Assembly: GCA_965603725.1 (NCBI GenBank)
Contig: CBFDEC010000006.1
Location: 5,997 to 69,996 of the forward strand
Source of the DNA: an uncultured bacterium
Lineage (GTDB): Bacteria > Zixibacteria > MSB-5A5 > UBA10806 > 4484-95
Direction of reading: 5' to 3'
DNA: 64,000 bases
This document shows positions 6,428 to 35,227 of this stretch, one piece after another (positions within the stretch are counted from its first letter, which is position 1; every line of letters begins with the position of its first letter). The position numbers and the translations under genes were made by a program. Below the pieces are notes generated by a model. That model saw only the letters and a list, made by a program, of their open reading frames with translations. It was not told the origin of the DNA and searched no databases.

Positions 6428-7306
6428 ATGAAAAAATCGTCGCGCCTGCTATATGCAATCACTCTGATTTTATGTAATCCCGGTATATCGGTAGCCCGTT
6501 TGGCCGATAAATGCGGCGTAACCGAAAGGACAATTTACCGGGATATTATCGATATCTCTGAAGCTAACATTCCCATTTACTTTGATAATGGCTACCGTAT
6601 CCTCGATACCGGGAAGGTGCCTCCGTTAAACTTCACCAGCGATGAGTTGATTTATCTGTATAACATTCTTCAAAGTAAGTCCCATAGCGAAGTGTTTGGC
6701 GGGGTTGGCAATAGGCTGGCGGATAAACTGAGACGTCACATTCCGGGAATCTTGAATGACAAAAATATCGGGTTTCATACTCATTCGACCGACACCACAG
6801 CCCTGGCAAAGATATTCGCCAGAATTGAAAAGACAATTAGTTCCGGCAAAATTATAAGTTTCAAATACACATCCTTAAACGGCAAGACATCCCGGCGAAA
6901 CGTTCATCCATACGGTCTTGTTTTCAGGGGTCATGGCTGGTACCTGGTCGGTTATTGTGAGGCAAGGGAAGAGGTCAGGATTTTCCGGCTTGTCAGGATA
7001 TCGAATTTACGGGCAATTCAAAAAAGGTTTGATAAACAGGCGGATTTTTCCATTGATGAGTTTATGGATGAAAGCTGGGCCGTTTTCAGGGGAGAGCATT
7101 ACAACTTTGAAATAAAATTTACCGGACCGGCGGCGGTTGCAGCATCTACAACCTGCCATCACAAAGATGAGAAAGTTGTAAAAAAAGGAAAAAACCACGT
7201 TATTTATAGCGTGAAATCCCGCGGCAAAGAGGAATTTATAAATGGGTGCTGTCATTCGGCAGGCATGCAGAATTGCTCGAACCGGTTCATCTTCGGCAGG
7301 AGGTAA
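6428..7306 (+). CDS. HTH + WYL-domain transcriptional regulator (YafY/PafBC-like). The C-terminus appears frameshifted; the full-length frame would end near 7345.
   Basis: N-terminal HTH_11-like segment (RLLYAITLILCNPGISVARLADKCGVTERTIYRDI). WYL domain (SFKYTSLNGKTSRRNVHPYGLVFRGHGWYLVGYCEAREEVRIFRLVRI). In the next frame the expected WCX tail appears from about 7242 (WVLSFGRHAELLEPVHLRQEVKKRLEASL...), after an A-run at 7238-7243. Confidence 0.7.
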   Translation: MKKSSRLLYAITLILCNPGISVARLADKCGVTERTIYRDIIDISEANIPIYFDNGYRILDTGKVPPLNFTSDELIYLYNILQSKSHSEVFGGVGNRLADKLRRHIPGILNDKNIGFHTHSTDTTALAKIFARIEKTISSGKIISFKYTSLNGKTSRRNVHPYGLVFRGHGWYLVGYCEAREEVRIFRLVRISNLRAIQKRFDKQADFSIDEFMDESWAVFRGEHYNFEIKFTGPAAVAASTTCHHKDEKVVKKGKNHVIYSVKSRGKEEFINGCCHSAGMQNCSNRFIFGRR

Positions 7307-7387
7307 AAAAACGACTGGAAGCTTCTTTGAGCAAATATATATAGAAACCATGGTGTTCATTATCTTTTTGATATTGAAAACGCCCAT

Positions 7388-7753
7388 TTGATGTGTTCGA
7401 TATTAAACATGACCAAAAAATATTGTAAAATCTGCGGCGCCGAGTGGGAAGAAAATTTCAATGAGTGCCCCAACTGCGGTATGCCCGCTGATCCCGACGA
7501 GCAGTTGTGGTTTGACAAGGATGCCCGTAAGCGCCTTGAAAGGAAACAAAGGAGAGGCATAAAAAAGCCGATACGCCGCCCTTCGAAATTGAATCGGGGA
7601 ATATTCCTGCCGTTGATCCTTGGTACCGGCGCAGTGTTGCGGATTATTGCCGGAGGTGGGTTTTCAACATCGACTTTGACTTTTGATATAATCGGCATTG
7701 CGATGTTCGTAATCAGCGTGGGGTATATTGTAAAAGCGAAATTAATACGTTAG
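7388..7753 (+). CDS. Zinc-ribbon (CxxC...CxxC) small membrane protein, hypothetical
   Basis: CKICGAEWEENFNECPNCG zinc ribbon, then a basic linker (KRLERKQRRGIKKPIRRPSK), then two predicted TM helices. The true start may be M at 7409 (MTKKYCKIC). Confidence 0.5.
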   Translation: MMCSILNMTKKYCKICGAEWEENFNECPNCGMPADPDEQLWFDKDARKRLERKQRRGIKKPIRRPSKLNRGIFLPLILGTGAVLRIIAGGGFSTSTLTFDIIGIAMFVISVGYIVKAKLIR

Positions 7754-7756
7754 GCC

Positions 7757-7908
7757 GGACAAAACACTGTTTTGTCCCTACAATGATATTTTTAATAAAT
7801 GTAGGGATAGAACACCGTTCTGTCCATAAACTGGACAAAAGACTGTTTTGCCCCTACAATGATATTGTTAATGAATGTAGGGACAGAACACCGTTCTGTC
7901 CATAAACT
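7757..7908. repeat. Two tandem 76-bp units (~92% identical), each carrying three perfect or near-perfect palindromes
   Basis: Unit 1 is 7757-7832 and unit 2 is 7833-7908. Each unit reads GGACAAAACA-C-TGTTTTGTCC, then CCCTACA-N17-TGTAGGG, then GGACAGAAC-ACC-GTTCTGTCC, then ATAAACT. Read directly from the sequence. Confidence 0.8.
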
Positions 7909-8059
7909 ATTTTATCAACGTCATCTGTTTCGTAAAACTAATCTCACCAGTTCTTGTGCTGTCAAGTCTCCGCACTTGACAGCTATACAGCGTCAGGTAC
8001 GGCAACCTGACGCGACATTAAGCCCAGGCGTTAACAAAACATCTTCATCCATCTTCCCC

Positions 8060-8088
8060 TTGACTTTCATTTCGTATGCAGGTAATAT
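8060..8088 (+). promoter_or_regulatory. Sigma70-like promoter TTGACT-17-TAATAT upstream of tRNA-Arg
   Basis: TTGACT at 8060-8065, a 17-nt spacer, and TAATAT at 8083-8088, about 70 nt upstream of the tRNA 5' end. Confidence 0.45.
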
Positions 8089-8122
8089 TACGCTGGCTGT
8101 CAGGCATAAGATCAACTTGTAG

Positions 8123-8153
8123 GTCGGGTTCCGATTGAAAAGAGAAACCCGAC
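8123..8153 (+). repeat. Hairpin GTCGGGTT-N15-AACCCGAC in the tRNA-Arg leader (copy 1 of 2)
   Basis: 8-bp perfect stem. The same stem sequence recurs at 8342-8372. Confidence 0.5.
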
Positions 8154-8160
8154 AAAGGAT

Positions 8161-8232
8161 GCCCCCGTAGCTCAGTGGATAGAGCATCGGCCTCCGGAGC
8201 CGTGTGCGGCCGTTCGAGTCGGCCCGGGGGTA
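8161..8232 (+). tRNA. tRNA-Arg (anticodon CCG)
   Basis: Manual cloverleaf fold. Acceptor GCCCCCG/CGGGGGT with a G1:U72 wobble. D-arm GCTC-AGTGGATA-GAGC. Anticodon arm TCGGC-CTCCGGA-GCCGT with one U:U mismatch at 27:43. 4-nt variable loop. T-arm GGCCG-TTCGAGT-CGGCC. Discriminator A, no encoded CCA. Closely resembles E. coli tRNA-Arg(CCG). Confidence 0.8.
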
Positions 8233-8341
8233 TAATGATCATGACAAAACGCTGACGGCCGGTTTGATTATGCGGTGAAAATGGCAGGAGAATTATCAAT
8301 AAACATTATCCTTTATTTGACGATTTTTCTATTATATACAA

Positions 8342-8372
8342 GTCGGGTTTTAGATCAAGACATAAACCCGAC
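8342..8372 (+). repeat. Hairpin GTCGGGTTT-N13-AAACCCGAC (copy 2) between tRNA-Arg and proS
   Basis: 9-bp perfect stem, 38 nt upstream of the proS ATG. Confidence 0.5.
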
Positions 8373-8409
8373 GTTTACCTTTGATAGATAGACAGGAGCA
8401 GAAATCAAC

Positions 8410-10125
8410 ATGCTTTGGACAAAAACATTTATCCCTACCTTACGTGATGACCCGGCTGATGCTGAAATCGCTTCGCATAAACTTCTGGTACGGGCGGGCT
8501 ACATCAGGAAGCTGACTGCTGGAATATATAACTACTTACCCTTAATGCAGCGAACAATTCATAAAGTCATGAATATAGTCCGTGAGGAAATGGACGCTGC
8601 TGGCGCCATAGAGATCACCATGCCGGTATTGCATCCGGCCGAATTGTGGCAGAAGACCGGTCGCTGGGATACAGTCGGGAAAGAGCAGATGCGTATGAAA
8701 GATCGTCACATGCGCGATATGGTCCTGGGCGGCACTCATGAGGAGGTGGTTACCTGGATCGCCCGCGGCGAAATCAGAAGCTACCGTCAAACGCCGATTA
8801 ATATGTACCAGATTCAGGTAAAGTTCCGTGATGAGATCCGTCCCCGGTTCGGCCTGATAAGGGGACGTGAATTCATTATGAAAGATGCGTACTCATTCGA
8901 TGTAGATGAGGCAGGTCTGAAAGTCGCCTATGAAAAAATGGCGGAAGCGTATTTCAAGGTGTTCAAGCGATGCGGTTGCGAGGTTAAGATAGTCGAATCG
9001 GATGTCGGCGCCATGGGTGGTTTTGGCGCGCACGAGTTCATGGTTCCTGTTGAAACCGGCGGTGGAGAGGAAATAATTCTATCGTGTGATAGATGCAATT
9101 ATGCCGCTAATATAGAAAAAGCCATTTCGTTTCACGATGAAGAACTGGTGACCGAAAAAGAACATAAAAGTAAAGAGATGGTTTTTACCCCCAACATGAA
9201 GACTATTGAGGAAGTCACCGAATACCTTAAATTGCCCCCAGAGAGACTGCTAAAGACTTTGATATATTTAGCTGATGGCAAACCCATAGCGGCGTTAATT
9301 CGCGGTGATCGAAGTATTAATGAAATCAAGCTCTCAAATCATCTTCGCAGCCTCGAACTTGAAATGGCCGACCCTGAAACTATTATGAAACTGACCGGCG
9401 CCCTGGTGGGTTTTTCCGGACCTGTTGGTTTAAGAGGCGTGCACATTATCGCTGATCATGAAATCAGGCAGATGGTTAATTTCGTAGTTGGCGCCAATAA
9501 AGATGACACTCATATTATCAATGTTAACCTTGAAGATTTCCACATTGATGAATATGCTGAGCTCCGCAATGCCGAAGCCGGTGAAAGATGTCCTCGCTGT
9601 GGAACAGGACGTCTCCAGGCGTTTTCCGGCATAGAGGTCGGCAACCTGTTCATGCTGGGTACAAAGTATTCCGAAGCTCTGGATGCGACCTTTGTCGATG
9701 AAAACGGCGACGAGAAACCGTTCGTGATGGGGTCATATGGAATAGGTATAACCCGTACCGCCCAGGCGGCAGTCGAGGCGTACCATGATGACAAAGGGAT
9801 TATCTGGCCAAAAACTATCGCGCCCTACGATTTCCATATCATCCCCTTGAGCATGGACAGCGAAAAGCACAGAGAGATTGCGTTTTCACTTTGCGATGAA
9901 CTTGAGAAGGCTGGTTATTCGGTACTCATCGATGACCGTGACGAGCGTCCCGGCGTCAAGTTCAACGACGCCGACCTGATCGGCATGCCGATACGTATTG
10001 CAATTGGGGACAGGGGGCTTAAAGAAGGCATTATAGAGATAGTCCGACGCAAAGACCTGTCAGTTGAGAAGGTCTCGATTGATATGGCCGCAGAAAAAGC
10101 TATTGAGATTTGGGAGGCGTTGTAA
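8410..10125 (+). CDS. proS: Prolyl-tRNA synthetase (bacterial type, with editing domain)
   Basis: The N-terminus MLWTKTFIPTLRDDPADAEIASHKLLVRAGYIRK is the canonical ProRS start. Class II motifs are present. Length 571 aa. Confidence 0.95.
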   Translation: MLWTKTFIPTLRDDPADAEIASHKLLVRAGYIRKLTAGIYNYLPLMQRTIHKVMNIVREEMDAAGAIEITMPVLHPAELWQKTGRWDTVGKEQMRMKDRHMRDMVLGGTHEEVVTWIARGEIRSYRQTPINMYQIQVKFRDEIRPRFGLIRGREFIMKDAYSFDVDEAGLKVAYEKMAEAYFKVFKRCGCEVKIVESDVGAMGGFGAHEFMVPVETGGGEEIILSCDRCNYAANIEKAISFHDEELVTEKEHKSKEMVFTPNMKTIEEVTEYLKLPPERLLKTLIYLADGKPIAALIRGDRSINEIKLSNHLRSLELEMADPETIMKLTGALVGFSGPVGLRGVHIIADHEIRQMVNFVVGANKDDTHIINVNLEDFHIDEYAELRNAEAGERCPRCGTGRLQAFSGIEVGNLFMLGTKYSEALDATFVDENGDEKPFVMGSYGIGITRTAQAAVEAYHDDKGIIWPKTIAPYDFHIIPLSMDSEKHREIAFSLCDELEKAGYSVLIDDRDERPGVKFNDADLIGMPIRIAIGDRGLKEGIIEIVRRKDLSVEKVSIDMAAEKAIEIWEAL

Positions 10126-11308: not shown

Positions 11309-11353
11309 GAAATGGGCGTAGGGGTTTGATTAATCAAACCTCTGCAGTTTAGT

Positions 11354-13957: not shown

Positions 13958-13985
13958 TGCAGTCAGAAGTAACTTCTGACTGCAC
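13958..13985. repeat. REP palindrome TGCAGTCAGAAGT-A-ACTTCTGACTGCA (orientation TAA)
   Basis: Perfect 13-bp arms. Belongs to the CAGAAGT(A/T)ACTTCTG family seen five or more times in 13958-15215. Confidence 0.75.
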
Positions 13986-14002
13986 AGAAGAATAAATTAT
14001 TT

Positions 14003-14458
14003 ATGGCATTGTTGAGTATGACTAAGGATAGATATTTAAATTTATTGATTGAATACGGATATATTTATGATAATGATTTCTATAATTGGGTGTTAATAGC
14101 AAATTTAGTATTTGTGATATTTTTTGGATTGATGGGTTACTGGGTATTGGAAAATATCATAGGGTTTATCGCAGGGGTTGGCTTAAGTTTTATATTATGG
14201 CGAAGTGTAAATAAAAAAATATGGTGGTTACGTAAAGAATACTATGTGCCATTTTTATATTCCTACAGATTTACCCAATTTGATAATATTGATATTGATT
14301 TACTGGGGAAGTTTATGCGTGGCCTTTATATGAAAGTAGAGAAAGTGAGCGCCCAAGAAGTTAAGAGCATAATTGAGCAAGGAAATAATGATTCTTCTAT
14401 TCCTTATAATTATGTAAAGAATATCGCAAATAAATATGAAACAAAATATGCTTTATAA
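14003..14458 (+). CDS. Hypothetical small membrane protein (151 aa), AT-rich, bounded by REPs
   Basis: Two predicted TM helices and no recognisable domain. It lies between REP 13958-13985 and REP 14488-14509, which are in opposite orientations. Confidence 0.4.
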   Translation: MALLSMTKDRYLNLLIEYGYIYDNDFYNWVLIANLVFVIFFGLMGYWVLENIIGFIAGVGLSFILWRSVNKKIWWLRKEYYVPFLYSYRFTQFDNIDIDLLGKFMRGLYMKVEKVSAQEVKSIIEQGNNDSSIPYNYVKNIANKYETKYAL

Positions 14459-14487
14459 ATTCTCTGTTTTGTGTCCCAACCTTAAGC

Positions 14488-14509
14488 GGCGCCAGAAGTT
14501 ACTTCTGGC
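14488..14509. repeat. REP palindrome GGCGCCAGAAGT-T-ACTTCTGGC (orientation TTA)
   Basis: Same core as the other REPs; the outer arms differ (GCGCC versus TGCAGT). Confidence 0.75.
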
Positions 14510-14534
14510 TGAACAAGCAGAAATAATTTACAGT

Positions 14535-14559
14535 GGTGTCAGAAGTTACTTCTGACACC
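14535..14559. repeat. REP palindrome GGTGTCAGAAGT-T-ACTTCTGACACC
   Basis: Perfect palindrome, 24 nt upstream of the RAYT start codon. Confidence 0.75.
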
Positions 14560-14582
14560 TGCTAATAAAACATATATTGTAA

Positions 14583-15095
14583 ATGGGAAGACGATACCGA
14601 CAAAATGTTAAAGGTGGATGTTATTTCGTTACGACATCTGTAGCGGGTTTTATTAAAGTTTTCGATGATCCACATTGCTCCAAAATTGTCATAGATTCAT
14701 TGCATTACTGCAAGCAAAAATTTAATTTTACGTTGGATGCTTACGTAATCATGCCTGATCATCTTCATTTAATCCTGACTATAGAAGAAAATTCTAAAAT
14801 TTCAAATATTATGAGAGATTTTAAAAAATATACTTCGGTGGCAGTCAAACGATATTTGTTAGAAGGAAATAATGATAAAATATATTTTCAGTTACTTAAA
14901 CAAGTACCCAGCAGACCTGAAAGATCGTTTAAACTATGGCTGGATAGATTTGATGATGTTGCCATATATTCAGAAAAGGTATACTTGACAAAGTTACAGT
15001 ACATTATTAACAACCCAATAAAAGCTGGTCTTGTTGCGAAACCTGAGGATTGGCAATATCTATATTATGAATCGATGAATTGCAGTCAGAAGTAA
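14583..15095 (+). CDS. REP-associated tyrosine transposase (RAYT / TnpA_REP, IS200-like Y1 HuH family)
   Basis: HuH motif VIMPDHLHLILT. C-terminal block KLQYIINNPIKAGLVAKPEDWQY typical of Y1 transposases and RAYTs. 170 aa. Flanked on both sides by REP palindromes, one of which overlaps its stop codon. Confidence 0.8.
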   Translation: MGRRYRQNVKGGCYFVTTSVAGFIKVFDDPHCSKIVIDSLHYCKQKFNFTLDAYVIMPDHLHLILTIEENSKISNIMRDFKKYTSVAVKRYLLEGNNDKIYFQLLKQVPSRPERSFKLWLDRFDDVAIYSEKVYLTKLQYIINNPIKAGLVAKPEDWQYLYYESMNCSQK

Positions 15096-15108
15096 CTTCT
15101 GACCGCAC
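15081..15108. repeat. REP palindrome TGCAGTCAGAAGT-A-ACTTCTGACCGCA overlapping the RAYT stop codon
   Basis: The core TAA of the palindrome is the RAYT stop codon (..CSQK*). Confidence 0.75.
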
Positions 15109-15140
15109 AAGGATTCTGACTGCACCAGAAGGTTTTAGGT

Positions 15141-15164
15141 GGCGCCAGAAGTTACTTCTGGCGC
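15141..15164. repeat. REP palindrome GGCGCCAGAAGT-T-ACTTCTGGCGC, with half-REP remnants at 15111-15126 and 15201-15215
   Basis: Perfect palindrome. The flanking fragments CTGACTGCACCAGAAG and ATGCTTCTGACTGTA look like degraded copies. Confidence 0.7.
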
Positions 15165-33461: not shown

Positions 33462-33510
33462 ATTGATTAAGCTTGGCTGAAATATTTATGCAGCAGGGGC
33501 ATATTGCGAT

Positions 33511-34440
33511 ATGTCCCTACGCGATTTATTTATGAAAATTATTAAGATACTCGATCACATATTTATCCTTCGCCCGATGCTTCACCTGCCGGTCTGGACA
33601 ATAATGATACTGGGTTATTACCGCGCTCAAAGCGATACGTCAAGCTGGACTATTTTGCCTATTTCTCTTCTGCTTGGTTCCGGACTTTTCGGAGCGGTTT
33701 TTCTAATCAACCAGATTTATGATATCGAATCTGATCGCCTTAACGATAAGCTTCATTTTTTACCGAAAGGCATAGTTAAAATAGGCGCCGCCTGGATAAT
33801 GACGATTCTTTTAAATCTTGTTTCGCTGGCGATCGCCTTTAGTTTATCGTTTACAGTGGGTTTTGCATCGTTAATGGTGATTGGGCTGGGTATTCTTTAT
33901 TCTGTTCCGCCGATTTCTTTAAAAGACAAAGCCTGGCCCGCGGCATTTGCCAACGGTCTTGGGCATGGCGCTCTTGTGTTTATTATCGGTTACTGCGCCG
34001 CCGGCGGTCAATTCTGGGATGGGATAATAAAATCGATTCCGTATTTCATGGCAGTAATGGCAGTATATATCGGTACGACCCTGCCTGACATTGCAGGTGA
34101 TAAAAAATCAGGCAAGCTTACTATCGGGGTGGTCTTTGGCGAGCGGTATTCGAAATATATTATATTACTTTATTATATAACAGCGGTATTCGCCGGCTTT
34201 GTAATCTTCGATATTCCATTTGTGGTCGCCTCTGTCGTTGTTGCCCCGTTTTATTTCTGGTCTGCTTTTTCAGGGTCAATAAAACCTGTTGTTCTGGCTG
34301 TTAAGCTGTCGATAATTTCATTAACGCTGGCGGCGGGATATTTCTATCCGGTATACATTATTTTTTTAGTAGTCTTGATTTATGCAACTCGAAAATATTA
34401 TAAGCGCCGGTTTAATATAGCATATCCCTCGATAAAATAA
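33511..34440 (+). CDS. UbiA-family membrane prenyltransferase
   Basis: NQIYDIESDRLND (NxxxDxxxD) with about 8-9 TM helices. Substrate unknown. Confidence 0.65.
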   Translation: MSLRDLFMKIIKILDHIFILRPMLHLPVWTIMILGYYRAQSDTSSWTILPISLLLGSGLFGAVFLINQIYDIESDRLNDKLHFLPKGIVKIGAAWIMTILLNLVSLAIAFSLSFTVGFASLMVIGLGILYSVPPISLKDKAWPAAFANGLGHGALVFIIGYCAAGGQFWDGIIKSIPYFMAVMAVYIGTTLPDIAGDKKSGKLTIGVVFGERYSKYIILLYYITAVFAGFVIFDIPFVVASVVVAPFYFWSAFSGSIKPVVLAVKLSIISLTLAAGYFYPVYIIFLVVLIYATRKYYKRRFNIAYPSIK

Positions 34441-34932: not shown

Positions 34933-35227
34933 ATAATCCAATTATCAATTGCAAGGGCAAAGCTTGATCTTGTGTTATGATCTATAAATTAGTTATACAT
35001 TTATCAGTTATTGCAGGCCTCTGACCCCTGAGGCGAGAGGTTTGAAAAAAAACAAAATGGTGATGTATGCCCAACGGTAGGACAGGTTTTCAACCTGTCC
35101 GGACAGACTAAAAGTCTGTCCTACTATACTGTTCTAACAGCAAACAACTAAAGATTAGCAGATAGATTTAATCTATTGTTGCCTTCAAATCCTTTATAAC
35201 CAGGAAAAAGTTTATGAATAATTCAGG

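What the first reader, a model, noticed from the sequence alone, without database searches (positions are those of the whole stretch)
7757..7908. Tandem 76-bp units, each built from three perfect palindromes, upstream of tRNA-Arg
Two head-to-tail units of about 92% identity. Each contains GGACAAAACA/TGTTTTGTCC, CCCTACA-N17-TGTAGGG, and GGACAGAAC-ACC-GTTCTGTCC. The first and third palindromes share the half-site GGACA(A/G)AAC. That looks like dimeric protein-binding sites repeated four times over about 150 bp, or a highly structured RNA. It is not a CRISPR array (no spacers, only two units) and not an obvious terminator (no T-runs). Its position after a zinc-ribbon membrane-protein gene, downstream of a WYL regulator, and about 150 bp upstream of the tRNA-Arg promoter fits an operator array, a miniature mobile-element remnant, or an integration-site relic.
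Basis: seen in the sequence. Interest (0 to 1): 0.55.

Follow-up and report, generated by a model that had tools for sequence, protein, structure and literature searches.

The report
Tandem cluster of GTAG-tagged REP palindromes
The 152-bp repeat is a small cluster of four REP elements, the selfish palindromic DNA repeats that bacteria carry between genes and that a dedicated tyrosine transposase is thought to copy, so it is an ordinary, already known kind of feature and not a regulator's binding site.

Summary
Positions 7757-7908 are two 76-bp head-to-tail units, identical at 71 of 76 positions. Only two of the four small palindromes are perfect.

The array reads as four copies of GTAG-GG(A/G)YARAAC-N3-GTTYTRYCC in alternating orientation. 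That is the anatomy of GTAG-tagged REP elements: two inverted dimers, each folding into a long hairpin, repeated in tandem like a BIME.

- **Distribution:** the same hairpin plus GTAG foot occurs in at least 120 genome stretches from many phyla. It is 86% extragenic, lies preferentially after gene 3' ends, and shows strict pairing covariation.
- **Transposase link:** it also sits in frame inside RAYT-like transposase genes, a published hallmark of TnpA-REP subclass 2.4 (RAYT group 4).
- **Alleles:** close relatives of this organism carry one REP, one dimer, or a different GTAGGG REP at the same site.
- **WYL link:** no WYL or zinc-ribbon gene accompanies the motif elsewhere.

The operator-array reading is not supported. 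The "miniature mobile element" reading is. I classify it as a new member of a known kind, of low interest.

Still unproven: other copies of this exact type and a cognate RAYT in this genome. The RAYT gene in the window (14583-15095) is flanked by a different REP type.

The parts
7757..7781 (-). REP unit 1. Hairpin GGACAAAAC-ACT-GTTTTGTCC (7757-7777, perfect 9 bp) plus foot CTAC (7778-7781), which reads GTAG on the minus strand.
   Evidence: The same unit is present at the orthologous site in relatives L124, L125, L126 and L127.
7782..7800 (.). AT-rich spacer AATGATATTTTTAATAAAT between the two facing GTAG feet of dimer 1. Its outer A and T extend the foot pairing to CCCTACA/TGTAGGG.
7801..7825 (+). 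REP unit 2. GTAG foot (7801-7804) plus hairpin GGATAGAAC-ACC-GTTCTGTCC, with one T.G mismatch.
7826..7832 (.). Linker ATAAACT between the two dimers (body-to-body junction). It is the end of the 76-bp tandem unit.
7833..7857 (-). REP unit 3. Degenerate hairpin GGACAAAAG-ACT-GTTTTGCCC (2 mismatches) plus CTAC foot.
7858..7876 (.). Spacer of dimer 2, AATGATATTGTTAATGAAT. It is identical to the spacer of the single dimer in relative L126.
7877..7901 (+). REP unit 4. GTAG foot plus perfect hairpin GGACAGAAC-ACC-GTTCTGTCC, the commonest stem variant of the family in other genomes.
7902..7908 (.). Second copy of the linker ATAAACT, marking the end of the tandem array.
7391..7753 (+). Gene for a 120-aa CxxC...CxxC (zinc-ribbon-like) membrane protein. 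Its stop codon lies 3 nt before REP unit 1, so the array is the start of its 3' untranslated region if transcription reads through.
7907..7951 (-). A 45-nt remnant homologous to the 3' end of a convergent LVIVD / T9SS-tail gene that is intact in relatives L124 and L125. It marks a synteny breakpoint directly next to the REP array.
8160..8233 (+). tRNA-Arg(CCG), with its promoter-like site at 8060-8088. It is a neighbour and no functional link to the array was found.
35077..35124 (.). A second locus of related GTAG-tagged hairpins: GTA-GGACAGGTT-TTC-AACCTGTCC directly abutting GGACAGACT-AAA-AGTCTGTCC-TAC. The feet point outward and the pair lies between convergent ORFs.
11318..11343 (+). A single GTAGGG-headed hairpin (GTAGGGGTTTGAT-TA-ATCAAACCTC) in the intergenic space after the NOV_C gene.
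14583..15095 (+). REP-associated tyrosine transposase (RAYT) gene in the same window. It is flanked by a different palindrome family (CAGAAGTWACTTCTG at 13964, 14493, 14540, 15087 and 15146, with GTGG/GTGC/GCGG heads). This shows the genome hosts a REP/RAYT system. It is not shown to act on the 7757-7908 array.

Best explanation
The feature is a cluster of four GTAG-tagged repetitive extragenic palindromes (REPs). Each REP is a 9-bp stem with a 3-nt loop and a GTAG tetranucleotide at its foot. They are arranged as two inverted dimers whose GTAG feet face each other across a 19-nt AT-rich spacer. Each dimer can fold into one long hairpin (REPIN-like), and the dimer plus a 7-nt linker is repeated in tandem (BIME-like).

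Inferred mechanism: in single-stranded DNA, the hairpin plus GTAG foot is the recognition element of a REP-associated tyrosine (Y1/HUH) transposase. The likely type carries this very palindrome in frame in its own gene (TnpA-REP subclass 2.4, RAYT group 4).

The array grew at this site from a single resident REP. First an inverted partner was added. Then the 76-bp unit was duplicated, either by RAYT-catalysed cleavage and strand transfer or by slippage or unequal recombination.

Its effect on the host is probably incidental. If transcribed, it forms a very stable hairpin 3 nt after the zinc-ribbon gene's stop codon. That could protect the mRNA 3' end or hinder terminating ribosomes.

Shown here: the anatomy, the membership of the motif in a widespread extragenic repeat family, its presence inside RAYT-like genes, and copy-number polymorphism at the site. 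Inferred: which enzyme acts, how the duplication arose, and any RNA-level effect.
For: 1. Anatomy. There are four copies of GTAGGG-RYARAAC-N3-GTTYTRYCC in orientation -,+,-,+. Each 76-nt unit folds as one long hairpin on either strand, at -30.1 and -25.7 kcal/mol on the plus strand and -29.7 and -29.4 kcal/mol on the minus strand (z -5.2 to -7.4).

2. Family. The hits come from Zixibacteria, Omnitrophota, CPR groups, Ignavibacteria, Chloroflexia, Terriglobales, Latescibacterota, cyanobacteria and others. Several MAGs are multi-copy, for example at least 11 copies on Zixibacteria chromosome OY970208.1.

3. Features the pattern did not impose. 55 of 130 hairpins carry a second foot, CTAC. The free base opposite C9 is G in 127 of 134. 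Stem position 3 covaries as A-T 110, G-C 23, G-T 1, A-C 0.

4. Extragenic bias. 86% of copies lie outside long ORFs against 23% of random positions, and 80 versus 32 lie nearer an ORF 3' end than a 5' end.

5. Transposase link. The palindrome lies in frame (VGTEQCSVPT) between the HUH and Tyr motifs of RAYT-like ORFs in L016, L026, L062, L073 and L112. Their best NCBIfam match is REP_Tyr_transpos, E 1e-13 to 2e-17, and three have Pfam Y1_Tnp matches. MAGs with such genes also carry dispersed copies: MNVP01 (L010, L084, L112) and CAZHGF01 (L048, L063, L073). This matches the published description of subclass 2.4: 'double foot' REPs and REPs inserted in frame in the tnpA-REP gene (PMC6006769).

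6. Alleles. At the orthologous site, relatives at 86-92% nucleotide identity have one REP (L124, L125) or one dimer (L126). L127's contig ends right after the first REP (CTACAAT), so its copy number is unknown. L128 has a different GTAGGG REP. Four independent assemblies of the window's strain have the two-dimer array. L126 shows a compensatory C-G to T-A change in the right-hand REP. Variable numbers of tandem BIMEs at one locus among strains are known in E. coli (PMC3333891).

7. Host genome. The window holds 5 GTAG-headed perfect hairpins against 0.25-0.5 in shuffles. A further GTAGGG hairpin pair lies about 6 kb upstream of the window (L141 17299-17360). A bona fide RAYT gene is present (NF047646, 126 bits against a cut-off of 80; PDB 4ER8 E 1e-8) with its own flanking REPs.

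8. Published definitions fit. These include the GTAG tag, stems of 6-13 bp, loops of 2-3 nt, dimers with 20-100 bp spacers, clusters of dimers repeated in tandem, and location after coding regions (PMC3733652).
Against: In the 64-kb window plus about 8 kb of extra flank, this exact REP type occurs only at this locus.

The dimer with its particular spacer was not found anywhere else. There were 0 hits in the metagenome collection. No like dimer was detected by a scan that recognised only the type-A core hairpin among the 120 genome stretches. By eye one hetero-dimer of the same architecture is present in L029. Mobility of the dimer as a unit is therefore not shown.

No cognate (subclass 2.4-like) RAYT was found for this organism, whose full genome I could not reach. 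The RAYT in the window is only 23-31% identical to the RAYTs that carry the palindrome, and it is flanked by another REP type.

The RAYT-like ORFs with the internal palindrome score below NCBIfam's curated cut-off (49-63 bits against 80).

The last step, 1 to 2 dimers, can be explained by plain tandem duplication without any transposase.
Confidence: 0.82

Rival explanations
1. The array is an operator: four dimeric binding sites for the adjacent WYL-domain regulator or another transcription factor, controlling the zinc-ribbon gene or the tRNA-Arg promoter.
For: The palindromic half-sites GGACA(A/G)AAC are repeated four times within 150 bp. A WYL/HTH gene lies about 450 bp upstream.
Against: The array lies downstream of both genes of the WYL/zinc-ribbon pair and 150 bp upstream of the tRNA promoter, not in a promoter. 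The same motif is present in at least 120 unrelated loci from many phyla, and tblastn finds no WYL or zinc-ribbon homologue in any of 131 other motif-bearing loci. Relatives that keep the WYL and zinc-ribbon genes at about 90% identity have 1, 2 or 4 half-palindromes, or a different palindrome altogether.
Confidence: 0.03
2. The array works mainly as RNA. It would be a 3'-UTR structure of the zinc-ribbon mRNA that blocks 3' exonucleases or stalls terminating ribosomes, or a separate small RNA. This is compatible with a REP origin (exaptation).
For: The structure is very stable on the sense strand, at -30.1 and -25.7 kcal/mol per unit. It starts 3 nt after the stop codon. In E. coli, REPs within 15 nt of a stop codon are reported to stall ribosomes and lower translation, and REPs stabilise upstream mRNA (Liang et al. 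2015 as summarised in PMC12306157). The mismatch in unit 2 is a U.G wobble on the sense strand. Family members lie preferentially after ORF 3' ends.
Against: No Rfam family reaches threshold; only spurious microRNA-precursor hits that reflect a long hairpin. Both strands fold equally well. Copy number is not conserved among close relatives. No T-run and no terminator call. No transcription data exist.
Confidence: 0.25
3. It is a relic of another kind of mobile element or recombination site: ends of an IS200/IS605 or TnpB element, a MITE with terminal inverted repeats, an integron attC site, or a phage attachment site near the tRNA gene.
For: The sequence consists of hairpin-forming ends. It lies about 250 bp from a tRNA gene and directly at a synteny breakpoint.
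Against: No transposase, TnpB or integrase ORF lies between or next to the units. The unit count varies in steps of whole REPs. Blast finds no match in the phage or plasmid collections, and only 1 hit appears in 2.9 million viral contigs. In other genomes the motif occurs mostly as isolated 25-29-nt palindromes, not as pairs bounding a cargo.
Confidence: 0.04
4. It is a chance local tandem duplication of a palindromic intergenic sequence, with no relation to any repeat family.
For: There are only two units, and this exact type occurs at only this locus in the window.
Against: The core 25-mer with its GTAG foot recurs far above expectation across genomes, with covarying stems. Relatives show different states, including replacement by another GTAGGG-headed palindrome.
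Confidence: 0.02

Closest known systems
GTAG-tagged REP families and their dimers and clusters (Di Nocera, De Gregorio & Rocco 2013, PMC3733652; Nunvar et al. 2010, PMC2817692)
   Same: Short palindrome (9-bp stem, 3-nt loop) with an unpaired GTAG at one end. Extragenic position after a coding region. Units paired in opposite orientation with a spacer close to the published 20-100 bp range (here 19 nt). Hetero-dimers with different stems. Clusters made of dimers repeated in tandem.
   Different: The stem sequence GGACAGAAC/GGACAAAAC was not found in that paper's text, and its figures are not held. The host is an uncultured bacterium outside the Proteobacteria. Copy number in this genome is unknown and apparently low.
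'Double foot' and canonical long REPs associated with TnpA-REP subclass 2.4 (RAYT group 4) (Quentin et al. 2018, PMC6006769; Bertels et al. 2017, PMC5581495)
   Same: GT[AG]G foot followed by G-C pairs at the stem base. Many family members carry GTAG...CTAC on both sides. The same palindrome is inserted in frame between the HUH and Tyr motifs of RAYT-like genes. Distribution across many phyla is patchy. Repeat abundance is only moderate.
   Different: In the window the REPs are single-footed and arranged as facing dimers. A subclass 2.4 RAYT has not been found in this organism.
E. coli BIMEs (REP y/z pairs) and the TnpA-REP REPtron (Ton-Hoang et al. 2012, PMC3333891; Messing et al. 2012, PMC3479197)
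   Same: REPs alternate in orientation, separated by short linkers. Two stem variants alternate. The number of tandem units at one locus varies among strains. A RAYT gene flanked by REPs is present in the same genome region (14583-15095).
   Different: E. coli REPs have bulged, longer, GC-rich stems. Here the stems are perfect or near-perfect and AT-rich. Binding of IHF, gyrase or Pol I cannot be assessed.
REPINs of Pseudomonas fluorescens SBW25 (Bertels & Rainey 2011, PMC3116915)
   Same: Two inverted REPs separated by a short spacer fold into one long hairpin. Tandem REPIN clusters exist. Singlets are seen at orthologous sites.
   Different: REPINs are defined as the replicating unit, present in tens to hundreds of copies with a conserved spacer and tied to a single-copy group 2/3 RAYT. 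Here the dimer with this spacer was found at one locus only, and the related RAYTs are group 4.

Membership tests
REP (GTAG-tagged repetitive extragenic palindrome) | Short (20-40 bp) palindrome able to form a stem-loop | tested here: met
   Four 21-nt hairpins with 9-bp stems and 3-nt loops. Two are perfect and two have 1-2 mismatches.
REP (GTAG-tagged repetitive extragenic palindrome) | Conserved GT[AG]G tetranucleotide at one foot of the hairpin | tested here: met
   GTAG/CTAC directly abuts all four hairpins. It is conserved in all family members retrieved, and 55 of 130 carry it on both sides.
REP (GTAG-tagged repetitive extragenic palindrome) | Extragenic location, preferentially downstream of genes | tested here: met
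   In the window the array lies 3 nt after a stop codon. Across the family, 86% lie outside long ORFs against 23% of random positions, and 80:32 lie nearer a 3' end.
REP (GTAG-tagged repetitive extragenic palindrome) | Many dispersed copies within one genome | tested here: inconclusive
   The family is multi-copy in other MAGs, for example at least 11 copies on OY970208.1, although the scan was truncated. In this organism only about 72 kb could be read. That holds this locus plus four other loci of GTAG(G)-headed hairpins with different stems.
REP (GTAG-tagged repetitive extragenic palindrome) | Association with a RAYT / TnpA-REP gene (REPtron) | tested here: inconclusive
   Met for the family: the palindrome lies inside RAYT-like ORFs in five loci, and one of them (L112) also has a flanking variant. 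For this genome, a true RAYT is present 6.7 kb away but is flanked by another REP type.
REP (GTAG-tagged repetitive extragenic palindrome) | Cleavage and strand transfer of the single-stranded REP by the cognate RAYT | not testable with these tools
   Needs a biochemical assay of the kind described in PMC3333891 and PMC8266576.
REPIN | Two REPs in inverted orientation, with a short spacer, folding into one long hairpin | tested here: met
   The minimum-free-energy fold of each 76-nt unit is a single long hairpin; unit 1 forms 23 base pairs.
REPIN | The doublet, with conserved spacing and spacer, is the unit that is replicated across the genome | tested here: not met
   The spacer-specific pattern gave 0 hits in metagenome contigs. 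No like type-A dimer was detected in 120 genome stretches; one hetero-dimer of the same architecture is visible in L029. The source genome itself could not be searched, so the failure is provisional.
REPIN | Single-copy, vertically inherited cognate RAYT of group 2 or 3 | not tested
   The RAYT-like genes that carry this palindrome resemble subclass 2.4 / group 4 in their features. No phylogeny was made.
BIME-like REP cluster | REPs in alternating orientation separated by short linkers, with two REP variants alternating | tested here: met
   Orientation is -,+,-,+. A-variant stems (GGACAAAAC/G) alternate with G-variant stems (GGAYAGAAC). Spacers are 19, 7 and 19 nt.
BIME-like REP cluster | Number of tandem units at a given locus varies among strains | tested here: met
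   1 REP in L124/L125, 2 in L126, and 4 in the window and in L001-L003 and L141.
Operator of a WYL-domain regulator | Site lies in the promoter of a regulated gene and co-occurs with the regulator gene | tested here: not met
   The array lies after two genes and 150 bp before the next promoter-like site. No WYL homologue occurs in 131 other motif-bearing loci.
Intrinsic terminator | GC-rich hairpin followed by a T-run | tested here: not met
   No terminator-like call in 7700-7950, and the hairpins are followed by ATAAACT.
Any curated RNA family (Rfam 15) | Score at or above the family's gathering threshold | tested here: not met
   Only the tRNA passes. The best hits on the array are microRNA-precursor models at 15-25 bits against thresholds of 59-107.
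CRISPR array | Direct repeats separated by unique spacers of similar length | tested here: not met
   The repeats alternate in orientation, and the 'spacers' are themselves repeated.

The most novel reading that the evidence does not exclude
The most novel reading not excluded rests on one contrast. The 25-29-nt palindrome GTAGGGACAGAAC-N3-GTTCTGTCC(CTAC) is almost invariant from CPR bacteria to cyanobacteria, while the RAYT-like proteins that carry it in frame are only 45-57% identical to each other.

This could mean the RAYT gene carries a protected master copy of its own substrate, so that enzyme and REP travel and persist as one unit across phyla. On that reading, the array in this window is a live offshoot of such an inter-phylum system. 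It would have been caught in the act of growing from 1 to 2 to 4 units, and possibly co-opted to tune translation termination of the zinc-ribbon gene.
Probability: 0.12. Interest if true: 0.5.

Novelty: new member of a known kind. Interest (0 to 1): 0.2.

Why it matters
It removes a candidate regulatory element from the list. The palindromes are REP elements, so no WYL operator or new RNA should be inferred from them.

There is modest positive value in three places:

- **Amplification series:** a set of natural alleles (one REP, one dimer, two tandem dimers, or a different REP) at one site in closely related uncultured bacteria. This is the kind of series from which REP/BIME amplification models can be tested.
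- **Range extension:** documentation that one GTAG-tagged REP sequence type extends over many poorly studied phyla (Zixibacteria, Omnitrophota, CPR and others).
- **Annotation:** a reminder that such hairpins mark assembly breaks and synteny breakpoints in metagenome-assembled genomes.

Tried and rejected
- **Rfam.** Gathering thresholds on the whole window and a permissive scan of 7300-8450 gave only the tRNA plus sub-threshold microRNA-precursor hits, which merely reflect a long hairpin.
- **Terminator scan.** Nothing at the array.
- **Exact-protein look-ups.** The 114-aa and 121-aa versions of the zinc-ribbon protein and P0003 gave nothing. The 120-aa version and cluster members worked.
- **Spacer-specific metagenome scan.** The pattern CCCTACAATGATNNNNNTAATNAATGTAGGG gave 0 hits, even though L126 from a JGI sample contains it. 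That collection evidently lacks those contigs, so the negative result is weak.
- **A-variant metagenome scan.** It returned 11 unrelated contigs with isolated copies and none from the window's organism.
- **Blast of the window against all fetched loci.** No overlap, so the source genome was not among the genome-scan rows returned.
- **Phage and plasmid collections.** No match. Viral contigs gave 1 hit.
- **WYL or zinc-ribbon co-occurrence.** None.
- **Flank walking.** Two look-ups added only about 8 kb.
- **Readings considered and dropped.** These were CRISPR, attC, IS200/IS605 ends, a MITE and a tRNA-linked att site; reasons are under the rivals and membership tests.
- **Not attempted.** Taxonomic placement of the source organism. 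T9SS sorting domains (Por_Secre_tail) hint at the FCB group, but this was not tested.
Full report
**Observation.** Positions 7757-7908 are two head-to-tail copies of a 76-bp unit (Tandem Repeats Finder: period 76, 2.0 copies, 93% matches, score 269). I count 5 differences in 76.

Each unit holds a 21-nt palindrome, then CCCTACA-N17-TGTAGGG, then a second 21-nt palindrome and the linker ATAAACT. Only two of the four 21-nt palindromes are perfect (7757-7777 and 7881-7901). The one at 7805-7825 has one T.G mismatch, and 7833-7853 has two mismatches.

The array starts 3 nt after the stop codon of a 120-aa CxxC...CxxC membrane protein gene, which follows a WYL/HTH gene. It ends 152 bp before a TTGACT-17-TAATAT site in front of tRNA-Arg(CCG).

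**Anatomy.** The feature is better read as four copies of one element, GTAG-GG(A/G)YARAAC-N3-GTTYTRYCC, in orientation -,+,-,+ (4 hits against 0.37 expected).

- Each element is a 9-bp stem with a 3-nt loop and a GTAG tetranucleotide at its foot.
- In each 76-bp unit the two GTAG feet face each other across a 19-nt AT-rich spacer.
- The whole unit is therefore a long imperfect hairpin: -30.1 and -25.7 kcal/mol, z -7.35 and -5.2, and the same on the other strand.
- The left members have A-variant stems (GGACAAAAC/G) and the right members G-variant stems (GGAYAGAAC). A compensatory A-T/G-C difference separates the two variants.

This is the architecture of GTAG-tagged REPs, their inverted dimers, and clusters of dimers repeated in tandem, as defined in PMC3733652. 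It also matches BIMEs (PMC3333891) and REPINs (PMC3116915).

By my own estimate, about 9 hits would be expected by chance in 596 Gb (37 bits of information, both strands).

The hits come from Zixibacteria, Omnitrophota, several CPR lineages, Ignavibacteria, Chloroflexia, Terriglobales, Latescibacterota, Sumerlaeota, cyanobacteria and others. Several MAGs contribute many loci.

Features that the pattern did not impose are nevertheless conserved:

- 55 of 130 hairpins carry a second foot, CTAC, making a 29-nt "double foot" palindrome.
- The unconstrained base opposite C9 is G in 127 of 134 cases.
- Stem position 3 covaries perfectly: A-T 110, G-C 23, G-T 1, A-C 0. The loop varies.
- 86% of copies lie outside long ORFs, against 23% of random positions in the same loci. 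They lie nearer an ORF 3' end than a 5' end by 80 to 32.

Blast finds no match in the phage or plasmid collections, and only one match appeared in 2.9 million viral contigs.

**Link to a transposase.** In L016, L026 (a pseudogene), L062, L073 and L112 the palindrome lies inside an ORF. It sits directly after an HUH motif (PNH[VI]H) and before a ...YI..NP tyrosine motif, and it translates as VGTEQCSVPT.

These ORFs match Pfam Y1_Tnp (three of them, E about 1e-8). Their best NCBIfam match is "REP-associated tyrosine transposase" (E 6e-13 to 2e-17), although they fall below the curated cut-off. MAGs with such a gene also hold dispersed extragenic copies: MNVP01 (L010, L084, L112) and CAZHGF01 (L048, L063, L073).

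This is a published property. Quentin et al. 2018 describe TnpA-REP subclass 2.4 (Bertels' RAYT group 4) as scattered over many phyla. They associate it with canonical long and "double foot" REPs. [quoted passage not shown] Group 4 is linked to only moderately frequent flanking 16-mers (PMC5581495). In-frame copies in unrelated genes also occur (L075 glycosyltransferase-like ORF), as reported for REPs in general (PMC3733652).

**The orthologous site in relatives.** Cluster members of the zinc-ribbon protein led to contigs of close relatives at 86-92% nucleotide identity.

| Locus | State after the stop codon |
|---|---|
| L124, L125 | One REP only (GGACAAAACACTATTTTGTCC-CTAC), directly joined to TTTATCAA..., the 3' end of a convergent LVIVD/T9SS gene |
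| L126 | One dimer (REP, spacer AATGATATTGTTAATGAAT, REP), then CTAT-TTTATCAA... and the tRNA-Arg promoter region |
| L127 | Contig ends at ...CTACAAT, inside the repeat |
| L128 | A different GTAGGG-headed palindrome (GTAGGGGCGTATTGCAATACGCCCC) |
| Window, L001-L003, L141 | Two dimers, identical in four further independent assemblies |

The window and L126 retain a 45-nt remnant of the LVIVD gene's end (7907-7951). The L124-type arrangement with a single REP is therefore probably the older one, and the array probably grew from 1 to 2 to 4 units. This polarity is my inference.

The segment that L126 has in addition to L124 is bounded by CTAC...CTAT. E. coli TnpA-REP cuts at C|T, including a site overlapping CTAC (PMC3333891). 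That is compatible with enzyme-mediated addition but is weak evidence. L126's right-hand REP differs from the window's by a compensatory C-G to T-A change.

**The host genome.** The window holds 5 GTAG-headed perfect hairpins against 0.25-0.5 in shuffles.

- A back-to-back pair lies at 35077-35124 between convergent ORFs.
- A single one lies at 11318-11343.
- A further inverted pair lies about 6 kb upstream of the window (L141 17299-17360).
- ORF 14583-15095 is a bona fide RAYT (NF047646, 126 bits against a cut-off of 80; E. coli TnpA-REP structure 4ER8, E 1e-8).
- That RAYT is flanked by five copies of another palindrome, CAGAAGTWACTTCTG, with GTGG/GTGC/GCGG heads.

The organism therefore hosts REP/RAYT systems. 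However, this RAYT is only 23-31% identical to the palindrome-bearing ones and has its own REP type. I do not assign the 7757-7908 array to it.

**Rivals.**

- *WYL operator.* Contradicted by position, by the lack of any WYL or zinc-ribbon homologue in 131 other motif loci, and by the allelic variation.
- *Dedicated RNA.* No Rfam family fits, there is no T-run, and both strands fold alike. A secondary RNA-level effect remains possible, either mRNA 3'-end protection or interference with termination. In E. coli, REPs within 15 nt of a stop codon stall ribosomes (summarised in PMC12306157).
- *Other mobile-element ends, attC or att sites.* These lack any supporting gene or cargo.
- *Pure chance duplication.* Contradicted by the family data.

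**What is not shown.**

- I could not read the rest of this genome.
- The dimer with its specific spacer was found nowhere else (the metagenome negative is weak because that collection lacks even L126).
- No cognate RAYT is identified for this organism.
- The last duplication step needs no transposase.

I therefore file the feature as a GTAG-tagged REP cluster with BIME-like organisation. It is REPIN-like in fold but not demonstrated to be a REPIN in the strict sense.

**Verdict.** This is a known kind of element in a new host: low interest and low novelty. Two points have some value. One is the natural allelic series at a single site. The other is the near-invariance of this REP across phyla while the RAYT-like proteins that embed it have diverged to about 50% identity.

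Noticed in passing
window 13964-15160: A complete REPtron. It consists of a REP-associated tyrosine transposase gene (14583-15095; NF047646 126 bits, HUH = HLH, Tyr motif QYIINNP) flanked by five copies of a second palindrome family, CAGAAGTWACTTCTG, with GTGG/GTGC/GCGG heads. One lies at 13964, two more upstream of the gene and two downstream, one of which overlaps the stop codon.
   Followed up: partly
window 35077-35124: Two abutting GTAG-tagged hairpins with outward-facing feet (GTA-GGACAGGTT-TTC-AACCTGTCC | GGACAGACT-AAA-AGTCTGTCC-TAC) between convergent ORFs. They share the GGACAG...CTGTCC stem base with the finding's REPs.
   Followed up: partly
window 11318-11343 and about 33494-33520 (minus strand); L141 17299-17360: Further GTAGGG-headed hairpins with other stems: GTAGGGGTTTGAT..., GTAGGGACATATCGCAATATGCCCC, and the inverted pair GTAGGGCAGGTCTC.../GTAGGGCAGAAGTC.... 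They suggest a heterogeneous GTAGGG-hairpin population in this genome.
   Followed up: no
window 8123-8153 and 8342-8372: Two direct copies of a hairpin, GTCGGGTT-N15-AACCCGAC, bracket the tRNA-Arg gene. One ends 6 nt before it and the other starts about 110 nt after it. There are no other copies in the window (2 against 0 expected). The role is unknown; a processing signal, terminator-like element or att-like repeat are possibilities.
   Followed up: partly
window 7756-7784, 7832-7860 (plus strand); 7826-7798, 7902-7874 (minus strand): Each REP plus its foot matches a sigma-70-like promoter, (T/C)GGACA-17-TACAAT or TACATT, at 9-10 of 12 positions, and does so on both strands. This is probably a by-product of the sequence, but REP arrays could supply outward promoters.
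   Followed up: no
window 7907-7951 versus L124 4868-7075 and L125 3277-4797: A synteny breakpoint lies exactly at the REP. Relatives have a convergent 735-aa LVIVD / Por_Secre_tail gene here, whereas the window and L126 keep only its last 45 nt and continue into the tRNA-Arg / proS region.
   Followed up: partly
L126 1630-1665 versus window 8015-8045: Relative L126 carries a partial REP-dimer fragment (CATGATATTTTGTAGGCTGGACAAAACATC) just upstream of the tRNA-Arg promoter. The window has a degenerate version (AGGCGTTAACAAAACATC).
   Followed up: partly
L075 1036-5398: The same palindrome is inserted in frame (VGTEQCSVPT / VGTEHCSVPT) at the same point of both halves of a duplicated glycosyltransferase-like ORF. 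The adjacent paralogue has a different, longer insertion at that point.
   Followed up: no
L016, L026, L062, L073, L112 (RAYT-like ORFs): The embedded 29-nt palindrome is nearly identical at the DNA level in RAYT-like genes whose proteins are only 45-57% identical and whose hosts are labelled as different phyla. L062 carries two different embedded palindromes, and L026 is frameshifted.
   Followed up: partly
L111 2839-2970, L117, L100, L034 (Spirochaetaceae and Thermotogales MAGs): Here the GGGCAGAAC variant of the REP is part of a longer composite repeat of about 106 bp (...TTATGCCCCTAC...AGTAGT-GTAGGGGCAGAAC...CCCTGAT...) that occurs in tandem.
   Followed up: no
L110 (Zixibacteria OY970208.1), two copies 1267 nt apart: REP copies sit directly after what looks like a tRNA 3' end (GGTTCAAATCCAACCC), with identical flanks at both copies. 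This suggests a duplicated tRNA-plus-REP segment.
   Followed up: no
L127 1002-1030: The contig of a close relative ends inside the REP dimer (…GTCCCTACAAT). This fits the repeat causing an assembly break.
   Followed up: no
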